A stretch of 64,000 nt of DNA from Candidatus Marinacidobacterales bacterium (GTDB lineage Bacteria; Acidobacteriota; Vicinamibacteria; Marinacidobacterales; SMYC01): NCBI GenBank assembly GCA_965237955.1, contig OZ250169.1:2944001-3008000 (forward strand), read 5' to 3'. Shown one piece after another: positions 4,172 through 34,126 of the stretch. The notes under the pieces are model-generated. The model was not told where the DNA came from, searched no databases, and saw only the letters and a list, made by a program, of their open reading frames with translations. The position numbers and the translations under genes were made by a program. Positions within the stretch are counted from its first letter, which is position 1, and each line of letters begins with the position of its first letter.

Positions 4172-5599
4172 CGTCCTGTGCCAAAACTCGGCCCTTTTGA
4201 AATAGGCCATAAATCAGCAACTTAGTGTCTGTGTTTGCGGCCGGGCCAAGGGCCGTGGGCTTTACAATCGTCTTGGGCGGGTGGGTCGTCACCATGCAGG
4301 TGACCACCTAGTCGAGAGCGAATATCGAAGCGTGTTCCTGAAGCTGTTTCCACGCTACGCCGGTCGAGCCCGCCGAGGGGCCACCGTCGCCGGCGACCAT
4401 CTACGCGGCACGGTAGTAGTAGTTGAGAATGCCCCTAAGTCGCTCTCGCGACACGATGGGGCCAGCGTCATTCGCGCTTGCCGGCAGAGGTGTGAGGAGC
4501 TCGTTGCCGAGACCTTGGTGGTTCCGTTCTGTGTGATAGTGCACTACGTATTCGGTTACCGCTGTGCGCAGGTGTCGCTCACTGAGAGGTACGAAGCGGT
4601 CGAGACACTCTCGACGTATGGAGAGAACGAATCTTTCCGCATATGCGTTCAGGTTCGGACTATTAGCGGGAAGGCGAAGGGGCTTCACGCCTGAATCTCT
4701 CAACAGCCCACGTACCGCCTCGGTGAATAGCGGGTCCCGGTCGTGGATGAGGTATCGCTTGCCAAGGAGGAAACCATCCCACATGTCAGTGAGGTTTCTT
4801 GCCACCTGCTTCATCCACTCCCCGTTGGGGTCCGACGTTATCCCACCGATGCACACGCAGCGAGTGGCGATATCGATGACAAACAGGACATGGTAGCGGA
4901 CGAGCCCGAACGGGTTCACCACCTCGACGGTGAACAGGTCTGTCGCAGCGATGGCGCCCCAATGAGCCTTGATGAAGGTGCTCCACGACATGCTCTTGCC
5001 CCGCTCCGGCGCAGGCGCGATACCGTGCTCGGCGAGGATCCTCTTGATAGTGTTGCGTCCGAGTTCATGTCCTAGGTTCTTGAGTGCGCCTCGCAGGCGC
5101 GTATATCCCCACGTCGGGTTCTCCCGCGCCACGCGCACAATGAGCTCACGGATGTCCTTCGCCGTCGGAGGTCGGCCTGGACTCCGGTTCTTGCTGCCAT
5201 CGTACTTGGCTGCGATGAGGTGGCGGTACCAGCGCAGAAGCGTAGCGGGTGTGGCAACGGACGCAATCTGGGCCAGCGCCTCGCGGCCCAAAGCCTGGGC
5301 CTTGACCGCGAGCCTGCGCCGGTCGTCGTCCGAGAGCCTGAGACGCTTGCCCCGAAGCCCGGCTCGGAGCACACGGTTCTCCTCTTGCAGGTAGTCGATC
5401 ACATCCTGCTGCTGGCGGTTGACCCAGCCAGCTAGAACGAGCAGTAGGAATTGCACGTGGTACGTCATCATGGATCTGAAGATAACACCCTCGGGCCAGA
5501 CGATTGTAAAGCCTACGGCCCTTGGCCCCGGCGCAAACACAGACACTAAGCTGCTGATTTATGGCCTATTTCAAAAGGGCCGAGTTTTGGCACAGGACG
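4172..5599 (-). mobile_element. Complete IS481-like rve/DDE element with ~100-bp type A terminal inverted repeats
   Basis: CGTCCTGTGCC...CTTTACAATCGTCT inverted at 4172 and 5599, enclosing one transposase ORF; no target duplication. Confidence 0.85.
4401..5471 (-). CDS. Transposase, HTH + integrase core (rve) domain
   Basis: [30 protein letters not shown] (D-D-E), [12 protein letters not shown]. Confidence 0.9.
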
Positions 5600-13842: not shown

Positions 13843-14197
13843 TGGCGCGCTGAATCGGCGCGCTCGCTCATTGGCGCGTCACGCGCCATAACGTGGCAGC
13901 GCCGTTTGCCCCGGCGATCCCGAACGCAGGCCCCCGTCCTGTGCCAAAACTCGGCCCTTTTGAAATAGACCACAAATCAGCAGTTTAGACGCCCTTGGAA
14001 TCCGCGCAGAATCGAGGGTATTTCGCGCCGCAGGGCTGACTTCCGACCCCTGGGCTGCGGGTGGCGAGCGACAGCCCACCGGTGGTGCGCACGGCTGGCT
14101 CAAATCGGCTGCGGGGCGAGCTACGGGCAGTGAACTGCGCACCCGGAAGTCCCTCATTAGACTGGACTTTATCGAGCACAAGAGCGAACGTTCGGTG

Positions 14198-14629
14198 ATG
14201 CCGCAGGATACAGGGGTTGGCCGGAACGTCGTTTTGGACGGTTTGGACTTCGCCAGCTTACGGCGGGTCTGGGAGCAGACCTTTGGGGCTGCTCCTCCAA
14301 GCTCGCTCTCGCGTGTTTTCCTGCGCCGCGTTCTCTTGCACGAACGCCAGTGCCGGACCCATGGCGGGCTTTCGGCCGCAACCCGGCGCGCTCTGGCTGC
14401 CATGGCGAACGAGACACCAAGCTCCGGCGCTCCCGCAGGGTCCGTTTCTGCCGGCACCCATCTCGTCCGCGAGTGGAATGGCCGGACCTACCAGGTCGAG
14501 GTACTCGACAACGGCTATCGGTTCGATGGCAAAACCTATCCGTCCCTCACTACCATCGCAAAGCGAATCACCGGCACCCACTGGTCAGGACCACGCTTTT
14601 TCGGTCTGACGCCCAAGCGCAAGGCCTAA
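14198..14629 (+). CDS. DUF2924 domain protein
   Basis: GTHLVREWNG..V.V...G..FDGKTYPSL..IA..ITGTHWSGPRFFGL. Confidence 0.9.
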   Translation: MPQDTGVGRNVVLDGLDFASLRRVWEQTFGAAPPSSLSRVFLRRVLLHERQCRTHGGLSAATRRALAAMANETPSSGAPAGSVSAGTHLVREWNGRTYQVEVLDNGYRFDGKTYPSLTTIAKRITGTHWSGPRFFGLTPKRKA

Positions 14630-14630
14630 C

Positions 14631-16292
14631 ATGAAGAAGATCCGCTGTGCCATCTATACGCGAAAGAGTGCGGAAGAGGGTCTCGAACAGGCGTTCAACT
14701 CCCTCGATGCGCAGCGAGAAGCCTGCGCCGCGTATGTCGCGAGCCAGAAAGCGGAGGGCTGGGTGCTGCTGCCAACCGTCTACGAGGACGCGGGGCTCTC
14801 GGGAGGAACCCTGGAGCGCCTGGGCCTGCAGCGCTTGCTCGCCGACATCGACGCAGGTCTCGTCGACCAGATCGTGGTCTACAAGGTCGACCGGCTGACC
14901 CGTTCCCTCTCCGACTTTGCAAAGCTCGTCGAGCGGCTCGAGGCGGCCGGCGCGGTTTTCGTCTCGGTGACTCAGTCCTTCAACACCGCGACCAGCATGG
15001 GACGACTGACGCTGCATATGCTGCTGTCCTTCGCACAATTCGAACGCGAGGTCACGGCCGAGCGGATCCGCGATAAGGTCGCTGCCTCCAAGCGCAAGGG
15101 ACTATGGATGGGCGGCCGCGTACCGCTAGGCTATGAGAAGGACGGGCGCACGCTGCGCATCAACGAGGCTGAGGCCGAAACGGTCCGGACGCTCTATGCG
15201 CTGTACCGGAAGCACGGAACGCTCCGGCAGGTGAAGGCCGAGGCGGACCGTCTGAGGCTGCGCACCAAGCGACGCTTCGCCGCGGATGGAACCCGGACAG
15301 GCGGGTTGCCGTTCCGTCGCGGACACCTCCACTGCCTGCTGACCAATCCTCTCTACGCCGGCCGTATCCGGCACCAGAGGCGTGTCTACGAGGGCCAGCA
15401 TCCATCGATCATTGCTCCGGAGCTCTGGGACGCGGTCCAGGCGCAGCTGCAGGCAGGGGCTGCCAAACCAAGGAGACGCACGACGAAGGGCCGCGCAGCC
15501 CCCTCCCCGCTGGCAGGCAAGCTCTTCGACGAGACCGGGGACCGGCTGACGCCGAGCCACACCAAAAAGAAAAACGGGCAACGGCTCCGCTACTACGTCT
15601 CCCGGCGCCTCATCCAGCACAGTGGCCAAAAGGACCTCTCCGGCTGGCGGCTGCCCGCCCCGATGCTGGAACAGACCGTCGTGCATCTCATCCGACAGCA
15701 TGTGGATGCCACGACCTTCTCGGCCTCGTTGATCCACACTCCGACGATGCAAGAGCTCACCTCGGTGCGTCGCTTTTTAGACGGGCTGTGTTCCGGTAGT
15801 AATGATGATAGTGCCTCGGCAGTCCCCCTGCTCCGTCTTATCCGGCGGGTCGATATCAGCTCCGGCTCTGTGTCCATCCTGCTCGACCGCAATGCGTTCG
15901 CTGCTTGCCTGTCTATGGGGCCCGACCGCATTCGCGAGGATGCACTCCGCATCCTCGCACCGTTCCGCTTGCGTCGACGCGGCGTCGAGACCAAGCTCGT
16001 TCTGGGCAACCCCACGAAATCCGTCGACCGCACACTCCTGCGCAATATCGCCAACGCCCTCTCCTGGCTCAACCGAATCAAAGCAGGCAAAACCTATGAG
16101 CAGATTGCCACCGAAAACGCCATCCCAACGGACCGCGTGCGCAAGGCAATCCGTTATGCCTTCCTGGCTCCCGACATCGTCCGCGCCATTGTCGAAGGCC
16201 GCCAGCCCGTTGGGCTGACCTCGAGCTACCTCTTGCATCATCCGCTTCCCGACGATTGGGAGAAACAGCGAGTGCTCGTCAAAACGCTGTGA
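14631..16292 (+). CDS. Large serine recombinase (resolvase + recombinase domains), complete copy
   Basis: AIYTRKS catalytic Ser, VYKVDRLTRS, FAQFERE, LTNPLYAG, GQHPSII. Confidence 0.92.
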   Translation: MKKIRCAIYTRKSAEEGLEQAFNSLDAQREACAAYVASQKAEGWVLLPTVYEDAGLSGGTLERLGLQRLLADIDAGLVDQIVVYKVDRLTRSLSDFAKLVERLEAAGAVFVSVTQSFNTATSMGRLTLHMLLSFAQFEREVTAERIRDKVAASKRKGLWMGGRVPLGYEKDGRTLRINEAEAETVRTLYALYRKHGTLRQVKAEADRLRLRTKRRFAADGTRTGGLPFRRGHLHCLLTNPLYAGRIRHQRRVYEGQHPSIIAPELWDAVQAQLQAGAAKPRRRTTKGRAAPSPLAGKLFDETGDRLTPSHTKKKNGQRLRYYVSRRLIQHSGQKDLSGWRLPAPMLEQTVVHLIRQHVDATTFSASLIHTPTMQELTSVRRFLDGLCSGSNDDSASAVPLLRLIRRVDISSGSVSILLDRNAFAACLSMGPDRIREDALRILAPFRLRRRGVETKLVLGNPTKSVDRTLLRNIANALSWLNRIKAGKTYEQIATENAIPTDRVRKAIRYAFLAPDIVRAIVEGRQPVGLTSSYLLHHPLPDDWEKQRVLVKTL

Positions 16293-21440: not shown

Positions 21441-23969
21441 ATGAACGAAGCGACCGCTCGGATCAAGATCAACAAACTGCTCGAAGCCGCCGGCTGGCGC
21501 TTCTTCGGCGATGGAGACTCGCCTGCCAATATTTGCCTTGAACCCAATGTCACGATCAGAACGTCCGATCTCGACGCCCTGGGCAACGACTTCGAGAAAA
21601 CATCCAAAGGCTACATCGACTTCTTGCTTTTGGACACTAAGGGATTTCCCTACATCGTCCTGGAAGCCAAATCGGAGGACAAGAACCCGCTCGTCGGCAA
21701 GGAGCAGGCCCGCAAATACGCCCGCTCCCAGAATTGCCGCTTCGTCATCCTGTCGAACGGCAACCTGCATTACTTCTGGGATCTAGAACGCGGCAACCCC
21801 TACGTCATCACCTCCTTCCCGACGCCGGAATCTGTATCCGGCTACCGGAAGGTCGCGCCCAACCCGCAGCGCCTGATCGGGGAACAGGTCGGCGAAGACT
21901 TCATCGTTCTCACCCAACGGCCGAATTATGCCTCTGAAGCTGCGTGGAAGAATGAAGCTGAGCGCCCCGGCTTCATTCAGGCCAACAAATTGCGCTTTCT
22001 GCGTGTCTATCAGCTCAGAGCGATCCATGCGTTGCAGCGGGCGGTACAGGACGGAGGCGATCGCTTCTTGTTCGAGATGGCGACAGGCACTGGCAAGACG
22101 CTCACCGCTGCCGCCGTCATCAAGCTGTTCCTCCGCTCGGGCAATGCCAGCCGAGTGCTCTTCCTGGTCGACCGGCTGGAATTGGAAGATCAGGCGCATA
22201 AGGTCTTCGCCACATTGCTTTCAGCGGACTTCCAGACGGTTGTCTATAAAGAGAACCGTGATGACTGGCATCGCGCCGAGATCGTCGTCACCACTGTTCA
22301 ATCCCTACTGTTCAACAACAAGTATCAGCGGCTCTTCTCGCCCACGGACTTCGATCTTGTAATTTCCGACGAGGCACATCGCTCGATCGGCGGTAACGCC
22401 CGCGCAGTGTTCGACTTCTTCGTGGGCTACAAGCTCGGGTTGACCGCGACGCCCCGTGACTATTTGAAGGGTACCAGCAAGACCGGCACTGCGGTGCATG
22501 ACCCACGTGAAACCGAACGGCGCCTCCTTCTCGACACCTATCGCACCTTTGGCTGCGAGAGCGGGCAACCCACCTTCCGCTACTCGCTACTCGATGGTGT
22601 GAAAGACGGATTCCTGCTCAACCCGACCGTGGTCGACGCTCGTACCGATGTGACCACCCAACTCCTATCCGAAGAGGGGTTTGTCGTCTCGTTCATCGAC
22701 GAGACGGGTGAAGACCTGGAGGAAGCCTACAAGCAACGCGAGTTCGAAAAGAGCTTTTACTCTGAGGCCACCAACCAGCTTTTCTGCAAAACCTTCCTTG
22801 AGAACGCGCTGCGTGACCCGATCAGCGGCGAGATCGGGAAGTCCATCGTCTTTGCTGTCAGCCAGAACCACGCAGCCAAGCTCGCGCAGATCTTCAACCA
22901 GATCGCTGACCGGATGTTTCCTGGCAAGTACCGGTCAGACTTCGGCGTGCAGGTAACCTCGCAGATCGCAGATGCGCAGAAGTTCACCATCAACTTCGCC
23001 AACAACAACCTGCTGGGCTCGGCCAACTTCCGTCCCGGCTACCGGACCAGCAAGGCTCGGGTCTGCGTCACGGCGGGCATGATGACCACCGGCTACAACT
23101 GCACCGATATTCTGAATATTGGCCTGTTCCGTCCCATCTTCTCGCCCACCGATTTCGTCCAGATCAAGGGACGCGGCACCCGTAGGCACGACTTCCGGGA
23201 TGACATTCTTGATGACAGCCTCAAGGACAGCGTCGCCGAGGCGCAGAAGACTGCATTCAAGCTCTTCGATTTCTTCGGCAACTGCGAGTATTTTGAGACC
23301 GAGTTCAACTACGACGAAGAGCTGAAGCTGACTCGGCCTCAAACGAGTAGCGGCGGGGCCGACATCGAACCGGTTCAGTTCGCTGGCTCTTACGAACACC
23401 CCGGGGCCGACATCATTGTCTCTGTACATGAAGAGACCATCGATTACGAAGGGATGAAGATTGACCGGATGCTCTTCGAGAAGTTCGGGGACACCGTGCG
23501 CCAAGACGAGACGATCGCCGATGCAGTGATGGCGGGCCAGTGGGATCGCGTAATCGATTACGTCAACCGAGAGGTCTTTGACAAGCCCGAAGAATACTAC
23601 ACCCTCAAGAAGCTGCGCCAAGCTGCCGCCGTGGACCGCCGCCTCACCTTGCGCGAAATTCTGGAGAAGGTCTTCGGCCTCATTCCCGATTTCAAATCTA
23701 AGGATGAGTTATTGGAAGAGGAGTTTGCGAAGTTCGTAGCCGATTGCAAGCCCGACGAGGCCAACGCCATCCAGGCCATCAAGACCTACTTCAAAGCCTA
23801 TGCCACCAGCAACCAAGTACGCGACATCATCGATGGCAAACGATTCGCCGAGCTCGCTACCAACCCGTCCTTTTCCACCGGCGACTTCAGCGCTGTGCCG
23901 GACAAGTACCGTAACCTCATTCCGGAATACGTCAAGGACTACGTTTCCTTGAACCAGTTCGCCCCGTAG
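21441..23969 (+). CDS. hsdR: Type I restriction enzyme R subunit-like DEAH helicase/nuclease
   Basis: YIDF...VLEAK nuclease motif, MATGTGKT, DEAHRS, GLTATP, QIKGRGTR. Confidence 0.85.
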   Translation: MNEATARIKINKLLEAAGWRFFGDGDSPANICLEPNVTIRTSDLDALGNDFEKTSKGYIDFLLLDTKGFPYIVLEAKSEDKNPLVGKEQARKYARSQNCRFVILSNGNLHYFWDLERGNPYVITSFPTPESVSGYRKVAPNPQRLIGEQVGEDFIVLTQRPNYASEAAWKNEAERPGFIQANKLRFLRVYQLRAIHALQRAVQDGGDRFLFEMATGTGKTLTAAAVIKLFLRSGNASRVLFLVDRLELEDQAHKVFATLLSADFQTVVYKENRDDWHRAEIVVTTVQSLLFNNKYQRLFSPTDFDLVISDEAHRSIGGNARAVFDFFVGYKLGLTATPRDYLKGTSKTGTAVHDPRETERRLLLDTYRTFGCESGQPTFRYSLLDGVKDGFLLNPTVVDARTDVTTQLLSEEGFVVSFIDETGEDLEEAYKQREFEKSFYSEATNQLFCKTFLENALRDPISGEIGKSIVFAVSQNHAAKLAQIFNQIADRMFPGKYRSDFGVQVTSQIADAQKFTINFANNNLLGSANFRPGYRTSKARVCVTAGMMTTGYNCTDILNIGLFRPIFSPTDFVQIKGRGTRRHDFRDDILDDSLKDSVAEAQKTAFKLFDFFGNCEYFETEFNYDEELKLTRPQTSSGGADIEPVQFAGSYEHPGADIIVSVHEETIDYEGMKIDRMLFEKFGDTVRQDETIADAVMAGQWDRVIDYVNREVFDKPEEYYTLKKLRQAAAVDRRLTLREILEKVFGLIPDFKSKDELLEEEFAKFVADCKPDEANAIQAIKTYFKAYATSNQVRDIIDGKRFAELATNPSFSTGDFSAVPDKYRNLIPEYVKDYVSLNQFAP

Positions 23970-23978
23970 AAACCTACC

Positions 23979-26447
23979 ATGCTGGATTCCAACACCAAGC
24001 GCCGCATCGACACCGCCCGAGACATCCTGGTCGGCAAGGTTCCGGACCCTAAGAGCCAGGTCGAGCAGATCACCATCGCGCTGATCTACAAGTTCATGGA
24101 CGACATGGACGCCGAGAGCGAGGAGTTCGGCGGGAAGCGCAGCTTCTTCGCCGACGAGTTCGCCCGCTATGGATGGGCCAAGCTGATGCGCGCCGGCCTC
24201 GGCGGCCATGAGACCTTGAACCTCTACGCCGAGGCCATCACCAAGATGCCTGAGAATCCCGGCATTCCACCTTTATTTCGCGATATCTTCAACAACGCCT
24301 ACCTGCCATATCGCGATCCGGAGACCCTTCGCGCCTTTCTAAAAATCATCGACGCGTTCACGTACGACCACTCCGAGCGCCTAGGTGACGCCTTCGAGTA
24401 TCTGCTCTCGGTCCTCGGCTCGCAGGGGGACGCCGGGCAGTTCCGCACCCCGCGCCATATCATTGACTTCATCGTCGCCATCATCGAGCCGAAGAAGGGC
24501 GAAACGGTGCTGGACCCCGCGTGTGGTACCGCCGGATTTCTGATCTCATCCTACAAGCACATCCTTGCCGCCAACACTGACCCGCAAGGCGTCAGCACGC
24601 TGACGCCGGATGACAAGGAGCGGCTAGCGGCGAACTTCAAAGGCTACGACATCTCGCCCGACATGGTGCGCCTGTCTTTGGTGAACATGTACCTGCACGG
24701 CTTTGCTGCCCCGCCTATCTTCGAGTACGACACGCTGACCAGCGAGGAGCGGTGGAACGAGTATGCGGACGTAATTCTGGCGAAGAACCCTCCGTTCATG
24801 TCTCCGAAGGGTGGTATACGGCCGCACAACCGGTTCTCAGTGCAATCCAAGCGGAGTGAGGTGCTGTTCGTGGACTACATGGCCGAGCACCTGACGCCCT
24901 CTGGCCGCGCCGGCATCATCGTGCCCGAGGGAATCATCTTCCAGAGCCAGAACGCCTACAAACAGCTTCGTAAGATGCTGGTAGAGGAATACTTGGTTGC
25001 TGTCGTTTCTTTGCCGGCTGGTGTGTTCAATCCCTATTCGGGCGTCAAGACGTCGATTCTCATCCTCGACAAGTCGCTTGCGAAGAAGACGGATCGTATC
25101 GCCTTCTTGAAGATCGAAAACGACGGTTTCGGTCTGGGCGCTCAGCGGCGCCCCATTGACAAAAATGACATACCGCAGATCCAGACCGAGATTGGCAAGT
25201 ACCTGCAATGGCTGCAAGCGGGGATACCACTAGACGGCTTCCGGCCTGCGCTCGGCCTTTTCGTACCGAAGGAAAAGATCGGCGCGAACGAGGAGTACAA
25301 CCTCAGTGGAGAGCGATATCGGGAAGAAGTAGTGCAATCAAAGCACTTTCCTTGGAGAACGGTGGAATCGCTCGTCGAGACAATCACTCCTCCATTCAAG
25401 ATCCAGAAAGCTGCTTTCGGAAGCAGCGGACGATTTCCCATCATCGATCAATCTCAAGATGCTATCGCAGGCTGGACGGATGATGAGTCCACATTGGTTC
25501 ACCCCACCAAACCGTTGGTTATCTTCGGCGATCACACGTGCGCACTTAAACTGATAGATGCGCCATTCGCACAGGGAGCAGACGGCATTAAAATCTTGCA
25601 AACCGTAGACGCGCTCGACCCACTTTTCCTCTTCCGCGTTCTCCGTGCCAGACCCCTCGAGAGTAGTGGTTATCAGAGGCATTACTCAAAGCTCAGAGAA
25701 CATCAAATCCCTCTGCCGCCGTTGGAGGTACAGAAGGAGATCGTCGCCGAGATCGAGGGTTACCAGAAGGTCATCGACGGTGCCCGCGCCGTCGTCGACC
25801 ATTATAGGCCGCACATTGCCGTAGACCCTGAATGGCCGTTGGTCCCCATTAAAGAGGTGGCGGCGGTTGAGAGTGGCTTCGGCTTCCCGATAGATCGTCA
25901 GGGCCAGAATGATGAGGGGATTCCGTTTCTGAAGGTCAGCGACATGAACCTCCCAGGGAATGAAGTGCGCATCGTGTCATGGAACAATTCTGTCTCACGC
26001 GAAGTCCTGCTCGAGTTGAAGGCAAAGGCGTTTCCCACAGGAACCGTAATCTTTCCGAAGATTGGTGCAGCTATCGCGACGAACAAGAAGCGCATCCTGA
26101 CAAGGGAGTCGACCTACGACAACAACGTAATGGGCATCGTCTCTGACCGCGCCCGTCTCGTGCCTGAATACTTACACACCTATCTTCTTGGCTTCAATCT
26201 TTCACGATGGGCAAGTGACGCGCAGCCACCGTCAATGCGAAAGACGGCGGTGGAAGCCCATGATATTCCCCTCCCGCTCCTCATCATACAGCAAGCCATC
26301 GTAGCTGAGTTCGAAGCCGAGCAGGCGTTGGTCAACGCCAACCGCGAGCTGATTGCCCGCTTCGAGAAGAAGATCAGCGCTGCCATCGGGCGAGTATGGG
26401 GCGAAGCTGAACCCGTCCTGTGCCAAAACTCGGCCCTTTTGAAATAG
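23979..26447 (+). CDS. N6-adenine methyltransferase fused to specificity subunit (HsdM-HsdS); last 10 aa supplied by an A end
   Basis: GQFRTPRH, DPACGTAGFL, NPPF, then two TRDs with IPLPPLEVQKEIV and IPLPLLIIQQAIV. Confidence 0.88.
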   Translation: MLDSNTKRRIDTARDILVGKVPDPKSQVEQITIALIYKFMDDMDAESEEFGGKRSFFADEFARYGWAKLMRAGLGGHETLNLYAEAITKMPENPGIPPLFRDIFNNAYLPYRDPETLRAFLKIIDAFTYDHSERLGDAFEYLLSVLGSQGDAGQFRTPRHIIDFIVAIIEPKKGETVLDPACGTAGFLISSYKHILAANTDPQGVSTLTPDDKERLAANFKGYDISPDMVRLSLVNMYLHGFAAPPIFEYDTLTSEERWNEYADVILAKNPPFMSPKGGIRPHNRFSVQSKRSEVLFVDYMAEHLTPSGRAGIIVPEGIIFQSQNAYKQLRKMLVEEYLVAVVSLPAGVFNPYSGVKTSILILDKSLAKKTDRIAFLKIENDGFGLGAQRRPIDKNDIPQIQTEIGKYLQWLQAGIPLDGFRPALGLFVPKEKIGANEEYNLSGERYREEVVQSKHFPWRTVESLVETITPPFKIQKAAFGSSGRFPIIDQSQDAIAGWTDDESTLVHPTKPLVIFGDHTCALKLIDAPFAQGADGIKILQTVDALDPLFLFRVLRARPLESSGYQRHYSKLREHQIPLPPLEVQKEIVAEIEGYQKVIDGARAVVDHYRPHIAVDPEWPLVPIKEVAAVESGFGFPIDRQGQNDEGIPFLKVSDMNLPGNEVRIVSWNNSVSREVLLELKAKAFPTGTVIFPKIGAAIATNKKRILTRESTYDNNVMGIVSDRARLVPEYLHTYLLGFNLSRWASDAQPPSMRKTAVEAHDIPLPLLIIQQAIVAEFEAEQALVNANRELIARFEKKISAAIGRVWGEAEPVLCQNSALLK

Positions 26448-26796
26448 ACCATAAATCAGCAGCTTAGTGTCTGTGTTTGCGACCGGGCCAAGGGCCGTAG
26501 GCTTTACAATCGTCTGGCCCGAGGGCGGAGGGCGTCCTGTGCCAAAACTCGGCCCTTTTGAAATAGACCACAAATCAGCAGCTTAGACGCCCTTGGAATC
26601 CGCGCAGAATCGAGGGTATTTCGCGCCGCAGGGCTGGCTTCCGACCCCAGAGCAGCGGGTGGCGAGCGACAGGCCCACCGGGGGTGCGCACGGCTGGCTC
26701 AAATCGGCTGCGGGGCGAGCTACGGGCAGTGAACTTCGCACTCGGAAGTCCCTCATTAGACTGGACTTTATCGAGCACAAGAGCGAACGTTCGGGG

Positions 26797-27094
26797 ATGC
26801 CGCAGGATACAGGGGTTGGCCGGAACGTCGGTTTGGACGGTTTGGACTTCGCCAGCTTACGGCGGGTCTGGGAGCAGACCTTTGGGGCTGCTCCTCCAAG
26901 CTCGCTCTCGCGTGTTTTCCTGCGCCGCGTTCTTGCGTACGAACGCCAGTGCCGGACCCTTGGCTGGCATTCGGCCACAACCCGGCGCGCTCTGGCTGCC
27001 ATGGCGAACGGGACGCCAGGCAACGGCGCCGCCGCTCCCGCAGGGTCCGTTTCTGCCGGCACCCATCTCGTCCGTGAGTGGAATGGCCGGACCT
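26797..27094 (+). pseudogene. DUF2924 copy truncated by an A end
   Basis: Similarity to 14198-14490, ending at ...GGACCT. Confidence 0.85.
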
Positions 27095-27254
27095 CGTCCT
27101 GTGCCAAAACTCGGCCCTTTTGAAATAGGCCATAAATCAGCAACTTAGTGTCTGTGTTTGCGACCGGGCCAAGGGCCGTGGGCTTTACAATCGTCTTGGG
27201 CGGGCGGGTCGTCACCATGCAGATGACCACCTAGTCGAGAGCGAATATCGAAGC

Positions 27255-27460
27255 ATCCTCAAATACATCCGCACGACCACCACCTCTTCCGGTTTGCGAG
27301 TACGCGCACACCTTATCCGGCGTCGTTATCCGAAGGGCGTCAAAATCACTGACGAGCGGATGCAGGCGCTTTCCGTTACAAAGGACCAGACTCTACCCAA
27401 ATGGAACTACACCATCCGACCGCCTTGAAAACGGGAACTTATTTTGTCGCCGGCCCTAAG
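27255..27460 (+). mobile_element. ISAzo13-family transposase 3' fragment and right end
   Basis: IRTTTTSSGLRVRAHL...YPKGVKITD...PKWNYTIRP*. Confidence 0.75.
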
Positions 27461-27572
27461 GGGGCAGCGGCTTCGCCTTCTAGGCCACCCTGTGCCAACG
27501 CGGCATCGCAGGGACTGCCGGTCAAGGCAGTGCAGATCAGCCGTTCGAGGCCCCGTTCGCTGGTGTCGGTCG

Positions 27573-28258
27573 TCACACCGCAGCCTCCTCGGGGGCGGCG
27601 GCGAGGTCGTCGGTGAGGGCATTGGTCTCGTCGCGAGGCTCCGGTTCCTCGGCCTCGTCCGGAAGCCGCGCCGCCGCCTCGCGCACATCGAGCTTCCCGG
27701 TAACTACATCAGCGACCAGGCGGGTGCGGTATTCGCGGAGAAGAGAGAGTTCGCCGTGCGCGAGGTCAATAGCACGCCGTGCGTCTGCCGACTCTTTGCT
27801 GACGACGTCGACGATGCCACGCTGCTCTTCCGGTGGCGGACACAACAACTTGATACGAAGGAACTCTTCCGGGTACATCCTCAGTCGTGACGAGCGGATA
27901 CCCGTTGACCGACGGATGTACTCGCTCTTGTATGGCGCCGTACGCAGCAGAAGGTCGGCGTACTCGCCAAGCAGTCTCGAAGAGCGGTGAGATCGGTAGA
28001 CAGCATACGAGGGACTAACTATTCCAGCCTGCCTAGCAACGCCTAGAGCGGCCATCCAGGCCCACATCGTATTGATGACTAGGTCGCCGGGCTTACACAG
28101 CTTGTGCCCAACGTGTGACACTGCCATGAACATCGTGATGTTCTTCTCACTTCGCGGCGTTACTCCGGTAATGTGAGACACGGACAGCAGTTCCTCTGAA
28201 CCAGTCTCAGAGCGCTCATCCGCTTCCCGGAAGTGCCATTTCGCCGGGCGTAGGTCCC
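27573..28258 (-). pseudogene. Type I specificity subunit (HsdS), C-terminal half
   Basis: GIVSPSY, PPPEEQRGIV, LREYRTRLVADVVTGKLDVR; 5' cut by the A end at 28259. Confidence 0.85.
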
Positions 28259-28739
28259 CGTCCTGTGCCAAAACTCAGCCCTTTTGAAATAGACCATTAA
28301 TCAGCAGCTTAGTGTCTGTTGTGCCTTCTATTTATTCATCCGCGCGTCCCGAACTTGATTGATCTTCGGTCTACCAGCACCATGCCGGCATGATTTCGTC
28401 GTTGGTTCCCGCTCTCATCTCTGCCTTCAAGGTTCGTCGCGAGCTAGCTCTCGAGAATGTCACTCTTCGGGAGCAGCTCGCCGTCCTCCACCATTCCGTG
28501 AAACGGCCGCTGGTTTTGGTGCCGCGTAACCCGCTCGTGTGCTAGAGTTTGAGCCTGATTTCGAGAGACGCAGTTCTTTCGGCGATGCGGGCTGGGCTGA
28601 CCACACGGTGCCTGACGTTCAGAGACACCTTCGTGTGCACGCCGACATCCTCATTAATGGCGTTCGCCGACACAGGCAGGCCAGCTGACACTAGCATTCA
28701 AACACGGCGTAGCAACATATCTGGACTCCTCTAGTCAAG

Positions 28740-29027
28740 CCCCTTTCTTAATAAATCTTCCATCGAAGCTGCGCATCCATCGCGTCGTGACGAGTGGGTC
28801 AGACTGCAAACGTATCTTCGGCCTCAGTGAGGAGCGTCTTGGGTGCTCCGGGCCATGATGGAAAATCCGCGCGCGAGGAGCCAATCACTTTGAACGACCT
28901 CTTAGGGCCAGTGTTGCTATCGGCTTGACCCCGCGCCGGTCCGACCGGTACGCCATCAGTTGGATGGGTATCGTCGCAGCCTCTTTTGGAAGGGAAAAAG
29001 GAAAACACGAAAGTGGAGCCTCTAAGT
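28740..29027 (-). ncRNA. Predicted bridge/seek RNA region of the IS1111 element
   Basis: Contains segments matching the target (28910-28919, 28886-28893) and the donor junction (28855-28863, 28811-28817). Confidence 0.75.
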
Positions 29028-30059
29028 CTAAGCGGCCATCGGCGACTGGAATTCACTCTCGCGGGTGGAGACGGCCCAGACGATCCGGGCGAGTTTGTTG
29101 GCGACAGCAATCACGGCCTTGTTGTGTCCCCGCGAGCGGTGGACCTTCCGAGCCCAGGCGCGGAGCTTGTCGGGCGGGCTCTTACTGACGTTCGCCGCGC
29201 GGAGCACGGCGCGCCCGCCCTGGGTGAGGAGCATACGGAGGTAGGAGTCGCCACGCTTGGTGATGCGTCCGAGGCGGCGAATGTCGCCACTGGAGTTTTC
29301 CTTGGGAACTAGGCCGAGGTAGCTCGAGAAGCGGCGCCCCGATGGGAAGCGGCGAAGATCGCCGACGAAGCCCACGATGGCGGTCGCGGTCAGAAGTCCG
29401 ATGCCGGGAATGGCGAGAAGTCGTTGGACTTCAGGAAGCTGCTTGGTGAGCGCCTTGAGCTCGTGCTCGATGCCAGCGCACTTGTCCTTGAGTTCTCGAA
29501 TCTCGGAGCAGGCATCACGGAGATGCGAACGGAGCACGTCGGGCAAATCAGAATCAGCGTCTTCGACGAGTTCGAAGAGGGCGGGCACGACGAAGTGAGC
29601 GCCCTTTGGGATGATGAATCCGAGTTCGCGCAGGATCCCGCGTACGGCATTGATGCGTGCGGTCCGTGTGGAGAGCCATCCTGAGCGCAGGCGATGGAGC
29701 GCGGCGAGGCTGTGCTGGTGCACGGACTTAATGGGCACGGGAAGAATCTCCTCGTTCCTGTAGGCCTCGAGCAACGCTTTGGCGTCGGCGCGGTCGTTCT
29801 TGCTCCCGCGTCGATAGGGCCTCACGAGGTGAGGTGGGAGCAGGACGACGTCGTGTCCCAACCTTCGGAACGTCCTTGCCCAGAAGTGAGCAGAGCCGCA
29901 GGCTTCGAGAAGCACGGTGGCAGCGCTCTGTTTGGCAAAAAACGACACCAACTTGGGTCGACTCACACGGAGTTGCTTGGACACCTTCCCCGCTTCTCCC
30001 GAGATGGCAATCTCGAAGACGTTCTTTGCAAGATCCACAGCGATCGTCGTATCTTTCAT
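29028..30059 (-). CDS. IS110 family DEDD transposase/recombinase
   Basis: AVDLAK, LLEAC, KNDRADA, IPGIG, YLGLVP..NSSG, ITKRGD.YLR. Confidence 0.93.
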   Translation of the reverse strand: MKDTTIAVDLAKNVFEIAISGEAGKVSKQLRVSRPKLVSFFAKQSAATVLLEACGSAHFWARTFRRLGHDVVLLPPHLVRPYRRGSKNDRADAKALLEAYRNEEILPVPIKSVHQHSLAALHRLRSGWLSTRTARINAVRGILRELGFIIPKGAHFVVPALFELVEDADSDLPDVLRSHLRDACSEIRELKDKCAGIEHELKALTKQLPEVQRLLAIPGIGLLTATAIVGFVGDLRRFPSGRRFSSYLGLVPKENSSGDIRRLGRITKRGDSYLRMLLTQGGRAVLRAANVSKSPPDKLRAWARKVHRSRGHNKAVIAVANKLARIVWAVSTRESEFQSPMAA

Positions 30060-30187
30060 TCGGACTCCTCCTTTTCGATGCGTATTCGACTGACTTTGGC
30101 ACATCGATGCCGTCTATGTCAGCGGAGGAGTCCATTCCATCACTTGATGGCGGAAGCACTTGATGGCGGAAGCACCGAATAGAGTCC

Positions 30188-31671
30188 ATGCCGACGGCAA
30201 GAACCAGCGAGAGCCACCCACTGCGCATCACGGCGATGACCCTGGGCGACGGCCGTGGCCGGATCGGCTTCTCGCAGTGCCCCGGTAGGATCGATCACTA
30301 CGCAATATCCGGGCCCTGGAAGCGGGATCTCGACACCGACCTCGACGCGATTCAGCGCTGGGGAGCGACTGCGGTGGTCAGCCTGATCACCCACGAAGAG
30401 ATCCCCGATCTGAAGGTGCACGATCTCCCGAGGGCGGTTCGAGACCGGCACATGGAGTGGTGGCATGCCCCGATTCCCGACGGAGAGGCACCGGAACAGG
30501 ACTTCGAGCACGCCTGGAAGGCCACCGGCGAGTCCATCCGGAACCGGCTGCGGCTCGGCTTCGACGTGCTGCTCCACTGCCGGGGTGGTCTGGGACGCGC
30601 CGGGACCATCACAGCCCGCCTGCTGGTGGAGTTGGGCGTGCAACCGGACGATGCGATCCGCCGCGTGCGCGACGCCCGCGAATGGACCATCGAGAACGGC
30701 TCCCAGCTGGCTCACGTGAGGCAGTGTTCGGCACAAGCACCATCGGTTCCATCCCGGAGACCGCGGACGACATCCACGACCGGGCGCTCGGGGCCTTCCT
30801 CGGTCTGGCGGTGGGCGACGCGGTCGGCACGACGCTCGAATTCTGCTCCCGCGATACGCAGCCGCGTCTAGAAGACATGGTCGGTGGCGGCCCGTTCGAT
30901 CTGCCGGCCGGCGCTTGGACCGACGACACGGCCATGGCGCTGGCCCTTGCCGACAGCCTGGCGGAATCCAAGACGCTCGACTGCCGGGACCTGATGGACC
31001 GTTTCGTGAAGTGGTGGCGAGACGGAGACTACTCGTGGAGCGGAGACTGCTTCGACATCGGAAACACGACCTGCCAAGCGCTCACCCGGTACCTACGGAC
31101 GGGTGACCCGGTCGCGGGTTCGACCGATCCCTTGAGCGCAGGCAACGGCTCGCTGATGCGGCTCGCCCCCGTTGCGCTCCGGTTCAGGCACGACCGGCCG
31201 CGCCTGATCGCAGCAGCCGCCGACCAGTCCCGGACGACCCACGGAGCCGAGGAAGCAGTGGACGCCTGCCGGGCGTTCGGCGAGCTCCTAGCGGACGCCA
31301 TCGCCGGGTCACCGTTCTCGGACGTTCTGGCTCCGAGACGGTTCACGGGAGCGGCGGCAATCACTCAGGTCATAGCCGGCAGCTGGCGAGGACGGACACG
31401 GGATACGATCCGCTCCAGCGGGTACGTCGTTCACACGCTCGAAGCCGCCATCTGGTCAGTCGCCCGCACCGGAGACTTCCGCAGCGCGGTGCTGCTCGCG
31501 GCCAACCTGGCCGACGACGCCGATACGGTAGCAGCAGTGACGGGGCAGCTCGCCGGCGCCCTCTACGGCCTGAACGCCATCCCCGACCACTGGCGGGAAC
31601 GCGTTGCCTGGAAGGATCGACTCCTGGCAGCGGCGCGGCGGTTGCTGTCGGAACCCCTTGCCGACCGGTAG
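30188..31671 (+). pseudogene. Dual-specificity phosphatase (CDKN3-like) fused to ADP-ribosylglycohydrolase; one frameshift near 30750
   Basis: HCRGGLGRAG in the first frame; GLAVGDA, WTDDT, GNGSLMR, DADT in the second. Confidence 0.85.
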
Positions 31672-31945
31672 AAGTTGGGTGGGTAGCCGAAGCACGGCTC
31701 TTGACCCGGTCGCAAACACAGACACTAAGCTGCTGATATTATGGTCTGTTTCAAAAGGCCGAGTTTTGGCACAGGACGGGATAGACTTTTTGCGGAGCAC
31801 ACCTGACGATGAGGGAACTGTGTCTTCAGAATTCTGGTTCAAACTCTAGCACGCGAGCGGATTACGCGGCGGCCACCAACACTTTGATGGCGGAAGCACC
31901 CGCCGATCTTCTTTTTTGCGGATCACAGGTAGCGAGGAGTAGCGC

Positions 31946-32167
31946 ATGACGTCGTCCGTGGAAGAGATCACGGTTACCTGTCCGGACTGCGGACATGTCT
32001 ACAAGGACTGGTATCGCGGGTCGATCAACTTAGCGCTCGATGATTTCGATGCCGACTACCTGGAACAAGCGTCGACGACGACCTGTCCGATGTGCGGGGT
32101 CAAACATGACCTTGGAACGTTGTTTGCCCGTCGAGACGAAGATGGGAATACGATCTTCGAGATGTGA
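31946..32167 (+). CDS. Small zinc-ribbon protein (CpXC-like)
   Basis: TCPDCG ... TCPMCG; RBS GAGGAG. Confidence 0.7.
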   Translation: MTSSVEEITVTCPDCGHVYKDWYRGSINLALDDFDADYLEQASTTTCPMCGVKHDLGTLFARRDEDGNTIFEM

Positions 32168-32679
32168 CAGACAGAACATCCTCATGCGCGCGATCGTAGT
32201 CCCTATTAACTCCTCTGTTAGAATAGTTTAGGGGAGACGGCCCGAGGGTAAGCGGAACTAAGGAAACGAGTGCAAAGGCGATCGTCGAGTAAATGGCCTC
32301 GGCCGGCAGACCGGAGACTAATCAAGTTCGGTGCGCGCGGATGAATAAATAGAAGGCACAACCCGCATTACTCAGTGGTCTGGGAAAGCCCCGGGCCGCG
32401 GCTCCACCCCTACCCGGGGGCGTCCACAAAACTCGGCCCTTTTGAAATAGACCACAAATCAGCAGTTTAGACGCCCTTGGAATCCGCGCAGAATCGAGGG
32501 TATTTCGCGCCGCAGGGCTGACTTCCGACCCCTGGGCTGCGGGTGGCGAGCGACAGCCCACCGGTGGTGCGCACGGCTGGCTCAAATCGGCTGCGGGGCG
32601 AGCTACGGCCAGTGAACTGCGCACCCGGAAGTCCCTCATTAGACTGGACTTTATCGAGCAGAAGAGCGAACGTTCGGTG

Positions 32680-33111
32680 ATGCCGCAGGATACAGGGGTT
32701 GGCCGGAACGTCGTTTTGGACGGTTTGGACTTCGCCAGCTTACAGCGGGTCTGGGAGCAGACCTTTGGGGCTGCTCCTCCAAGCTCGCTCTCGCGTGTTT
32801 TCCTGCGCCGCGTTCTCTTGCACGAACGCCAGTGCCGGACCCATGGCGGGCTTTCGGCCGCAACCCGGCGCGCTCTGGCTGCCATGGCGAACGAGACACC
32901 AAGCTCCGGCGCTCCCGCAGGGTCCGTTTCTGCCGGCACCCATCTCGTCCGCGAGTGGAATGGCCGGACCTACCAGGTCGAGGTACTCGACAACGGCTAT
33001 CGGTTCGATGGCAAAACCTATCCGTCCCTCACTACCATCGCAAAGCGAATCACCGGCACCCACTGGTCTGGACCACGCTTTTTCGGTCTGACGCCCAAGC
33101 GCAAGGCCTAA
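32680..33111 (+). CDS. DUF2924 domain protein
   Basis: Near-identical to 14198-14629. Confidence 0.88.
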   Translation: MPQDTGVGRNVVLDGLDFASLQRVWEQTFGAAPPSSLSRVFLRRVLLHERQCRTHGGLSAATRRALAAMANETPSSGAPAGSVSAGTHLVREWNGRTYQVEVLDNGYRFDGKTYPSLTTIAKRITGTHWSGPRFFGLTPKRKA

Positions 33112-33112
33112 C

Positions 33113-34126
33113 ATGAAGAAGATCCGCTGTGCCATCTATACGCGAAAGAGTGCGGAAGAGGGTCTCGAACAGGCGTTCAACTCCCTCGATGCGCAGCGAG
33201 AAGCCTGCGCCGCGTATGTCGCGAGCCAGAAAGCGGAGGGCTGGGTGCTGCTGCCAACCGTCTACGAGGACGCGGGGCTCTCGGGAGGAACCCTGGAGCG
33301 CCTGGGCCTGCAGCGCTTGCTCGCCGACATCGACGCAGGTCTCGTCGACCAGATCGTGGTCTACAAGGTCGACCGGCTGACCCGTTCCCTCTCCGACTTT
33401 GCAAAGCTCGTCGAGCGGCTCGAGGCGGCCGGCTCGGTTTTCGTCTCGGTGACTCAGTCCTTCAACACCGCGACCAGCATGGGACGACTGACGCTGCATA
33501 TGCTGCTGTCCTTCGCACAATTCGAACGCGAGGTCACGGCCGAGCGGATCCGCGATAAGGTCGCTGCCTCCAAGCGCAAGGGACTATGGATGGGCGGCCG
33601 CGTACCGCTCGGCTATGAGAAGGACGAGCGCACGCTGCGCATCAACGAGGCTGAGGCCAAAACGGTCCAGACGCTCTATGCGCTGTACCGGAAGCACGGA
33701 ACGCTCCGGCAGGTGAAGGCCGAGGCGGACCGTCTGAGGCTGCGCACCAAGCGACGCTTCGCCGCGGATGGAACCCGGACAGGCGGGTTGCCGTTCCGTC
33801 GCGGACACCTCCACTGCCTGCTGACCAATCCTCTCTACGCCGGCCGTATCCGGCACCAGAGGCGTGTCTACGAGGGCCAGCATCCATCGATCATTGCTCC
33901 GGAGCTCTGGGACGCGGTCCAGGCGCAGCTGCAGGCAGGGGCTGCCAAACCAAGGAGACGCACGACGAAGGGCCGCGCAGCCCCCTCCCCGCTGGCAGGC
34001 AAGCTCTTCGACGAGACCGGGGACCGGCTGACGCCGAGCCACACCAAAAAGAAAAACGGGCAACGGCTCCGCTACTACGTCTCCCGGCGCCTCATCCCGT
34101 CCTGTGCCAAAACTCGGCCCTTTTGA
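33113..34126 (+). pseudogene. Large serine recombinase truncated by the A end at 34098
   Basis: Near-identical to 14631-15615, then PSCAKTRPF* from the repeat. Confidence 0.88.

What the first reader, a model, noticed from the sequence alone, without database searches (positions are those of the whole stretch)
28690..30176. IS110/IS1111 element with four readable bridge-RNA guides, inserted in a type D end
Seen, in element orientation (minus strand): the junctions are TCAAG-TG-ATGGAA and CCAGATA-TG-TTGCTA. This gives core TG, target TCAAG-TG-TTGCTA and circle junction AGATA-TG-ATGGAA. The downstream non-coding region contains, in RNA order: the complement of AGTGTTGCTA (28910-28919, 10/10 to target), TCAAAGTG (28886-28893, AAGTG exact here and 8/8 to the D copy at ~31880), the complement of ATGATGGAA (28855-28863, 9/9 to donor junction) and AGATACG (28811-28817, 6/7 to donor). 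The target lies in the D end (GGTGCTTCCGCCATCAAGTGTTG). Established: IS110/IS1111 use bridge/seek RNAs, and IS4321/IS5075 and IS1111-attC target transposon IRs and attC. Inference: this is a new target specificity, with an intact recombinase.
Basis: partly seen in the sequence, partly recalled or inferred. Interest (0 to 1): 0.8.

Follow-up and report, generated by a model that had tools for sequence, protein, structure and literature searches.

The report
RNA-guided IS1111 retargeted to IS1-like ends
This is a jumping gene of the known RNA-guided IS1111 kind that sits in one end of another, IS1-like jumping gene; its predicted guide RNA matches that end and was likely switched recently from integron sites, so it is a clear natural example of a known mechanism with a new target.

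Summary
Confirmed, with corrections. Window 28718-30142 (-) is an intact 1425-bp IS1111-type element (343-aa DEDD/Ser recombinase, subterminal repeats, downstream RNA); its closest named relative is attC-targeting ISPa25 (46%). All four guides are present, lie in two predicted internal loops, and the two target guides covary with flanks across relatives. The 'D end' is the right terminal repeat of an IS1-like element and its MITEs: 24 of 24 left junctions and 18 of 24 right junctions in this genome lie there; the other 6 are self-duplications. Public runs hold the empty allele of this locus. A 93%-identical sister in the same genome has other guides and sits in an attC-like site, so the target likely switched recently. 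Corrections: the 8/8 match at ~31880 is incidental (unused left-type end); 'core TG' is not a lineage rule (ISPa25 begins TG but inserts before CG). Extra: tandem duplications end exactly at both junctions; donor-side ones are in print, target-side ones (including 16 bp here) I did not find described. No circle junction was seen. Targeting transposon ends and natural retargeting are known, and this scan noted such an element in another genome. New member of a known kind.

The parts
28718..30142 (-). IS1111-type IS110-family element, 1425 bp (7-nt left and 3-nt right extensions beyond the subterminal repeats)
   Evidence: 16 near-full-length matches at 97.9-100% in the genome plus one at 91%
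29028..30059 (-). DEDD/serine recombinase (transposase), 343 aa; D9, E52, D89, D92, S256/S257
   Evidence: PF01548 + PF02371; NF033542 308.9 bits; best named plasmid hit ISPa25 46.3%; residues
28789..28964 (-). predicted bridge/seek RNA with a target loop and a donor loop
   Evidence: consensus structure of 22 relatives, 16 of 36 pairs with compensatory change; model R1 hits here and in ISPa25 (102 bits) and ISPa21 (69 bits); expression not shown
28910..28919 (-). [quoted passage not shown]
   Evidence: 10/10 complement; covaries with the right flank, 7.90/9 vs 4.80 shuffled and 7.31 vs 4.83
28886..28893 (-). [quoted passage not shown]
   Evidence: covaries with the left flank, 3.86/5 vs 1.75 and 4.11 vs 1.71
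28855..28863 (-). 5' donor guide (complement of the left end TGATGGAA plus one base of the predicted circle junction)
   Evidence: lies in the donor loop
28811..28817 (-). 3' donor guide AGAUA-CG; the CG is nearly invariant in the lineage and is UG in one sub-lineage
30125..30142 (-). left end: 7-nt extension TGATGGA plus subterminal inverted repeat
   Evidence: the first 19 nt are the same in ISPa25
28718..28738 (-). right end: -35-like TTGACT (28733-28738), subterminal repeat (28721-28731), 3-nt extension ATA
   Evidence: in the computed circle junction TTGACT lies 18 nt before TG-n-TGGAAT, a weak predicted junction promoter
30062..30071 (-). internal copy of the subterminal repeat over the ribosome-binding site; predicted to pair with the left repeat in read-through RNA
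   Evidence: fold of the first 95 nt, -32.3 kcal/mol
30159..30176 (-). outer 18 bp of the host's right terminal inverted repeat ('D end')
30143..30158 (-). 16-bp tandem duplication of the left target half, ending at the insertion point
   Evidence: absent from the empty allele (skip of 1441 = 1425 + 16)
28521..28717 (-). inner part of the host MITE (about 244 bp when whole); its left terminal repeat is missing here
   Evidence: intact copy G000:C1:704979-705222; other copies continue into the left repeat at 28520
31810..31900 (-). left-type end of the IS1-like host, empty; not a target
   Evidence: matches the left end of the autonomous copy G000:C1:3086457

Best explanation
The element is an intact IS1111-type insertion sequence of the ISPa25 (attC-targeting) lineage that sits 18 bp inside the right terminal repeat of an IS1-like element and its MITEs, and its downstream RNA, predicted to form a target loop and a donor loop, likely guides the recombinase there by base pairing. 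Shown here: anatomy, fixed site and orientation, the empty site, and guide-flank covariation. Inferred from characterised relatives: the element is copied out as a circle, the joined ends make a promoter, the RNA binds the recombinase, and strand exchange just 5' of the TG inserts it without a target duplication. The lineage likely came from an attC-targeting ancestor by changes in the two target guides. One-sided ('half-match') reactions of the same enzyme likely made the tandem duplications that end at either junction.
For: Site: 24 of 24 left junctions of this type end in TCAAG of the host repeat. Of 24 right junctions, 18 continue TG-TTGCTA and 6 are internal self-duplications. In other genomes 56 of 62 close-relative left ends lie in the host repeat (counted by eye). 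Empty site: contigs of runs X16 (178 nt on the shorter side) and X19 (92 nt) join 28715 to 30157. The uninterrupted 15-mer occurs 76, 0, 20, 15 and 51 times in G001-G005. Independent insertions: 18 of 18 host sequences beside right junctions differ (mean identity 75%), while the last 300 bp of the IS average 98%. Guides: covariation in two sets; 0 and 0, then 1 and 0, of 20,000 permutations reached the observed values. All four guides fall in unpaired loops. Discrimination: in G000 no right junction continues into a left-type end, although these share about 23 bp with the target; 1 such case in relatives (L001). L033 and L034 lie outside the host repeat but still match TCAAG-TG-TTGCT. Ancestry: the sister at G000:C1:5245814-5247238 (93.3% aa) has different guides and an attC-like hairpin site. 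The five IS1-end rows group together (94/76) inside a 100/98 clade with the sister, and L077 lies outside them.
Against: No circle junction was listed in any of 8 runs laid, all contigs, and RNA expression is not shown. In register the 3' target guide matches only 3 of 5 flank bases here, at the low end of the relatives (2-5). The register of the 5' guide differs among relatives (three registers were allowed in the test) and is shifted here, which I cannot explain. Permutation tests ignore relatedness. Three exact AAGTGTTGCTA sites in G000 are empty. In G002, 6 copies lie outside the host repeat, and 4 of them match the target poorly on one or both sides. The IS1-end clade has only moderate support, and the attC call for the sister rests on one copy and a fold.
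Confidence: 0.9

Rival explanations
1. Same element and target, but it recombines like IS621, through a required shared dinucleotide core (TG) with exchange of both strands.
For: Here both junctions carry TG. A sub-lineage at 93-95% identity has the donor guide AGAUAUG, which matches TG. PMC11208158 and PMC11208160 describe such cores for IS621 (passages).
Against: Relatives carry TG on the left and CG, CC, CT, CA or GG on the right. The empty OXA-10 attC site reads ...TTGAG|CGACTTG..., while ISPa25 begins TG, so no shared dinucleotide is needed. Self-duplication junctions join AGATA to TG, CG, GG or AG. PMC11187229 reports insertion without extra bases for IS1111 members.
Confidence: 0.2
2. 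The IS entered a host end once or a few times and was then multiplied passively, by the host's transposase or by segmental duplication.
For: Four copies share one left flank, so some multiplication of whole segments happened. The outer 18 bp of the host repeat remain in place.
Against: 18 different host sequences of two subtypes lie beside nearly identical IS ends. The empty allele of this locus exists. Copies outside the host repeat still match the guides.
Confidence: 0.05
3. The target is chosen by protein contacts, by DNA structure, or by the host transposase bound to its repeat; the RNA matches are incidental.
For: Empty exact 11-mer matches exist outside or at the edge of host ends, so context may add to site choice. 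Occupied left flanks keep the whole host terminus.
Against: Guides covary with flanks. A 93%-identical protein with other guides sits elsewhere. Left-type ends with nearly the same repeat are almost never used.
Confidence: 0.04

Closest known systems
ISPa25 / ISKpn4 / ISPst6 / ISPa21 (IS1111 family, attC-targeting group; seekRNAs in PMC11187229)
   Same: Best named protein hits (ISPa25 46.3%, ISPa21 42.4%); same first 19 nt as ISPa25; the RNA model matches both; top-strand guide before bottom-strand guide.
   Different: The target is the right terminal repeat of an IS1-like element, not attC; the 5' guide sits in a shifted register; many copies per genome.
IS4321 / IS5075 (IS1111 family)
   Same: Insert at a fixed place in the terminal inverted repeat of another mobile element (title of Partridge and Hall 2003, seen only in reference lists; paper not held).
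   Different: Their host is the Tn21-family repeat; here it is an IS1-like repeat, only the right-end subtype is used, and most hosts are MITEs. I did not compare the proteins directly.
ISEc11/ISXne4 and ISEc21/ISMch6 natural retargeting pairs (PMC11187229)
   Same: Related elements with changed guides and changed targets; ISEc21 also targets other ISs (IS3-family transposase genes).
   Different: Those pairs are 72% identical; here the pair is 93% identical, lies in one genome, and switches between two classes of mobile-DNA site.
IS621 bridge RNA system and its half-match reactions (PMC11208160, PMC11208158, bioRxiv 10.64898/2026.08.31.748434 and 10.64898/2026.08.14.744561)
   Same: Two-loop RNA with four guides, DEDD plus serine; tandem repeats that keep the left-donor arm.
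   Different: RNA downstream and guide order reversed; no shared core across the lineage; duplications also end at the left-target arm and copy host DNA.
IS1 family (for the host element)
   Same: 1197 bp, about 23-bp terminal repeats beginning GGTG, zinc-finger and DDE-type protein; plasmid relatives annotated 'IS1 family transposase' at 26-31%.
   Different: Below the curated cut-offs; no consistent target duplication seen.

Membership tests
IS110 family (bridge recombinases) | N-terminal DEDD RuvC-like domain and C-terminal Transposase_20 domain with catalytic serine | tested here: met
   PF01548 47.2 bits and PF02371 87.8 bits, both above cut-off; NF033542 308.9 vs 140; D9/E52/D89/D92 and SSG
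IS110 family (bridge recombinases) | Non-coding RNA whose loops match target and donor and covary with them | tested here: met
   (computational; the target guides covary, the donor guides are nearly invariant)
IS110 family (bridge recombinases) | Circular intermediate with abutted ends and a junction promoter | tested here: inconclusive
   no such joint in 8 runs of contigs, none in the genome; -35/-10-like motifs at 18-nt spacing in the computed junction
IS110 family (bridge recombinases) | RNA is expressed, binds the recombinase and is needed for movement | not testable with these tools
   only contigs were available; they show no strand or ends
IS1111 group | Subterminal inverted repeats with 7-nt left and 3-nt right extensions | tested here: met
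   10 of 11 positions match; extensions TGATGGA and ATA; criterion from PMC11187229
IS1111 group | Long non-coding region downstream of the gene; top-strand guide 5' of bottom-strand guide | tested here: met
   310 nt downstream against 83 nt upstream; order in RNA
IS1111 group | Transposase of 330-350 aa with GL-P----S(t)G motif; fixed site and orientation; no target duplication made by normal insertion | tested here: met
   343 aa, GLVPKENSSG; one orientation in all copies; 19 of the 25 window-type left ends have no duplication
IS1111-attC group (ISPa25, ISKpn4, ISPst6) | Transposase, ends and RNA related to the group | tested here: met
IS1111-attC group (ISPa25, ISKpn4, ISPst6) | Inserts into attC sites | tested here: not met
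   this element lies in IS1-like repeats; only the 93% sister lies in an attC-like site, so I file it as derived from the group, not as a member
IS1 family (host element) | Transposase scoring as IS1 family | tested here: inconclusive
   NF033558 is the best family at 78.6 bits, cut-off 100; PF03400 21.0 vs 24.1; several tblastn hits annotated IS1
IS1 family (host element) | Terminal inverted repeats around one transposase; target duplication (about 8-9 bp for IS1, recalled) | tested here: inconclusive
   repeats present; no consistent duplication in the 10-nt flanks of the short intact copies, judged by eye

The most novel reading that the evidence does not exclude
A recently retargeted IS1111 acts as a parasite of an IS1-like family. 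Its target loop also drives one-sided reactions that duplicate HOST DNA up to the insertion point, the mirror image of the published left-donor duplications, in a lineage that needs no shared core.
Probability: 0.4. Interest if true: 0.6.

Novelty: new member of a known kind. Interest (0 to 1): 0.38.

Why it matters
It gives a natural guide-swap pair: two elements 93% identical in protein, in one genome, with different guides and different target classes (attC-like site versus IS1-like end). The lineage data bear on an open point of IS1111 mechanism, whether a shared core is needed; they say it is not, which would widen target choice for IS1111-type editors. The duplications at the left-target junction suggest that half-match errors of bridge recombinases can also act through the target loop on flanking host DNA, which matters for editing fidelity. 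None of this changes the known principle of RNA-guided IS110/IS1111 transposition.

Tried and rejected
Rfam at E<=1 over 27000-33000 gave no match. The single-sequence fold of the non-coding region gave z=-2.6 but placed the guides only partly in loops; the alignment fold was used instead. No circle junction: none in the genome within one mismatch except one unrelated coding site, and no such joint in 8 runs, which are contigs and drop rare forms. RNA-run contigs cover the region patchily and cannot show expression. A sigma-70 scan found no promoter inside the linear element. A test of whether truncated host ends break preferentially at the insertion point was inconclusive, because chance 15-18-nt matches swamp the histogram. 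'Saturation' as a general rule was rejected: G001, G003, G004 and G005 keep 76, 20, 15 and 51 empty perfect sites beside 32, 15, 5 and 5 occupied left junctions. The ~31880 copy as a target was rejected. Target-side duplications were not found in relatives: 0 of 63 left ends in L001-L074. The paper on IS4321/IS5075 was not held. A search on the host group's mobile elements returned nothing relevant. No structure or complex prediction was run.

Full report
Observation. By the convention of PMC11187229 (7-nt left and 3-nt right extensions beyond subterminal repeats), the element spans 28718-30142 on the minus strand, 1425 bp. It encodes a 343-aa protein with both IS110 Pfam domains, NF033542 at 308.9 bits against a cut-off of 140, and D9, E52, D89, D92 and GLVPKENSSG. 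In 20,000 shuffles of the non-coding region the 10-nt and 9-nt guide matches appeared in 0.01% and 0.11%, but AAGTG and AGATA appeared in 11% and 13%, so the short ones needed other support.

Copies. The 8.13-Mb genome holds 16 near-full-length matches at 97.9-100%, one at 91%, and fragments. A search for ends found 25 left and 25 right ends; one of each belongs to the diverged sister. All 24 other left ends follow TCAAG of the 'D end', and the DNA beyond that end differs except in four copies that share a flank. Of the 24 right ends, 18 continue TG-TTGCTA and 6 are joined to a site inside the element. The 18 host sequences are all different (mean identity 75% over 170 nt), while the last 300 nt of the IS average 98%, which points to repeated insertion. 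Close relatives at 89-100% came from genomes titled Candidatus Marinacidobacterales. Of their 62 left ends, 56 lie in the same repeat and 6, all in G002, do not (counted by eye; some rows share a flank). Two of those six (L033, L034) still match TCAAG-TG-TTGCT. One insertion (L001) is in a left-type end.

The empty site. Contigs of runs X16 and X19 join 28715 to 30157 with 178 and 92 nt on the shorter side; X18, X1 and X2 show the same joint with only 20 nt. The skip of 1441 equals the element plus the 16-bp duplication, so the duplication came with or after the insertion. The uninterrupted 15-mer occurs 76, 0, 20, 15 and 51 times in G001-G005. No circle joint was listed in the 8 runs.

What the D end is. 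Pairing the ends gave elements of 105-244 bp and one of 1197 bp with a 371-aa open frame (G000:C1:3086457-3087653). Its best family is IS1 (NF033558, 78.6 bits, below the cut-off of 100), and several of its 21 plasmid matches are annotated IS1; I call it IS1-like. Five near-full transposase matches are in the genome. Left and right ends share about 23 bp, but only right ends continue TTGCTA. Of 38 rows found by inner anchors, 17 were occupied, 14 were intact empty right ends, and 7 were truncated or chance rows. All 14 empty ends differ from TCAAG-TG-TTGCTA, four by a 3-nt deletion at the site. Three exact AAGTGTTGCTA sites are nevertheless empty, and four of the five other genomes keep many empty sites, so depletion is a feature of this genome, not a rule.

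The RNA. An alignment of 22 relatives gives a consensus with two internal loops that hold the four guides; 16 of 36 pairs have compensatory changes, against 7.0 in shuffles (the structure was derived from this alignment). For covariation, 35 parsed loci were reduced to 26 by guide pair. The 3' target guide matched its own left flank at 3.86 of 5 against 1.75 in permutations (n=21, including one near-copy of the window element). The 5' guide matched its own right flank at 7.90 of 9 against 4.80 (n=20, best of three registers). None of 20,000 permutations reached either value. In a second set (17 of 31 loci parsed) the figures were 4.11 vs 1.71 (n=9; 1 of 20,000) and 7.31 vs 4.83 (n=13; 0 of 20,000); some rows share guides and one is window-type. 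Relatedness is not corrected for. The window's own 3' guide matches only AAG in register, and the register of its 5' guide is shifted relative to all other distinct guides; I cannot explain this.

Core. In 18 of the 21 rows with both junctions, the left one begins TG and the right one CG or CC; CT, CA and GG also occur. For ISPa25 the empty OXA-10 attC site has CG, the element begins TG, and the right junction keeps CG. So TG is the start of the element and happens to equal the target's bases here. The near-invariant CG of the donor guide likely reflects the ancestral target; a sub-lineage of IS1-end elements has changed it to UG. That this works like a handshake pairing is my inference from IS621 (PMC11208158, PMC13626964).

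Ancestry. The best named relative is ISPa25 (46.3%), which PMC11187229 places among attC-targeting elements; the RNA model scores it at 102 bits. The sister in this genome (93.3% aa) has other guides that fit its own flanks, and its empty site folds as an attC-like hairpin between TAAC and GTTAT. The genome has an integron integrase match above cut-off, though 1.9 Mb away. In a tree of 32 proteins the five IS1-end rows group at 94/76 within a 100/98 clade with the sister; L077, whose guide also begins UAAC, is next. The switch from attC to the IS1-like end is therefore likely, with moderate support. The IS1-end guide was found in 5 of 19 genomes of the family searched.

Duplications. Right-end self-duplications join AGATA to upstream internal sites starting TG, CG, GG or AG, in this genome and in L023 and L028-L031; run X15 shows another. 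Tandem repeats that keep the left-donor arm are described in bioRxiv 10.64898/2026.08.14.744561, and half-match recombination in 10.64898/2026.08.31.748434. On the left side, 6 of 26 left ends (sister included), which are 4 independent loci, carry duplications of flanking DNA ending at the insertion point: 16, 79 and 116 bp, and a 7-junction array. None was seen at 112 empty host ends (Fisher p=0.001 for 4/26 vs 0/112; the control includes left-type ends), nor at 63 left ends in relatives' loci. The junctions have up to 5 nt of microhomology, so slippage is not excluded. The passages I saw compare only donor arms ('target-side': 0 occurrences); that preprint's supplements are closed and may bear on this.

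Papers seen. PMC11187229: parts 1-5 of 9. PMC11208160: passages and section 12. PMC11208158 and PMC13626964: passages. bioRxiv 2026.08.31.748434: parts 1, 3 and 4 of 6. bioRxiv 2026.08.14.744561: passages. bioRxiv 2025.10.25.684509: part 1 of 5 and passages (copy-out, one-strand integration). Partridge and Hall 2003: title only. Searches showed no report of an IS1111 in IS1 ends; ISfinder and most subscription journals were not searched. attC features and the IS1 target duplication are recalled, not taken from a call.

Verdict. A real, well-supported IS1111-type element with a readable two-loop RNA and a target that I did not find described, derived from the attC lineage. The mechanism, targeting of transposon ends and natural retargeting are all known, and this scan noted such an element in another genome. 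New member of a known kind; interest 0.38. The 93% sister pair, the lack of a shared core and the target-side duplications are what would interest a specialist.

Noticed in passing
window, whole (e.g. 4169, 7435, 11710, 13932, 28256, 34095, 39464, 62817): About 30 copies, on both strands, of an end beginning CGTCCTGTGCCAAAACTCGG. An rve-type transposase at 4401-5546 (-) (best NCBIfam IS481, below cut-off) lies between two such ends; many ends abut truncated genes or other elements' ends.
   Followed up: no
G000 host ends at 704979, 744248, 1079238, 3051686, 3054440, 7884684: The IS1-like end directly follows CGTCCTGTGC, the start of that other repeat, at the same base in several loci; this may be a preferred site or an adjacent-deletion end point.
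   Followed up: no
G000 IS1-like MITEs (105-244 bp) and G000:C1:3086457-3087653: No consistent target-site duplication around intact copies, which is unusual for IS1 as I recall it (by eye).
   Followed up: partly
window 14195-16292, 32677-34126 and partial copies near 26700, 39650, 63000: Five copies or fragments of a DUF2924 plus large serine recombinase module.
   Followed up: no
window 21441-28271: Type I-like restriction-modification genes (helicase with HsdR N-terminus; methylase fused to a specificity domain), interrupted by repeat ends near 26400.
   Followed up: no
window 30188-31671: Dual-specificity phosphatase and ADP-ribosylglycohydrolase domains in two overlapping frames; possibly one frameshifted fusion gene.
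   Followed up: no
G000:C1:2861923-2862400 (L132): Array of seven 48-62-bp duplications of the same left flank as the window locus, each ending at the insertion point.
   Followed up: yes
G000:C1:3346207-3347146: Integron integrase match above cut-off in two pieces, perhaps frameshifted; the sister's attC-like site lies 1.9 Mb away.
   Followed up: no
L153, L154, L157, L158: Distant relatives from other families share a 5' guide UAGCAGCCC and a right flank CGGGCTGCTAG, an unidentified repeated target.
   Followed up: no
window 30062-30134: An internal copy of the subterminal repeat covers the ribosome-binding site and is predicted to pair with the left repeat in read-through transcripts.
   Followed up: partly
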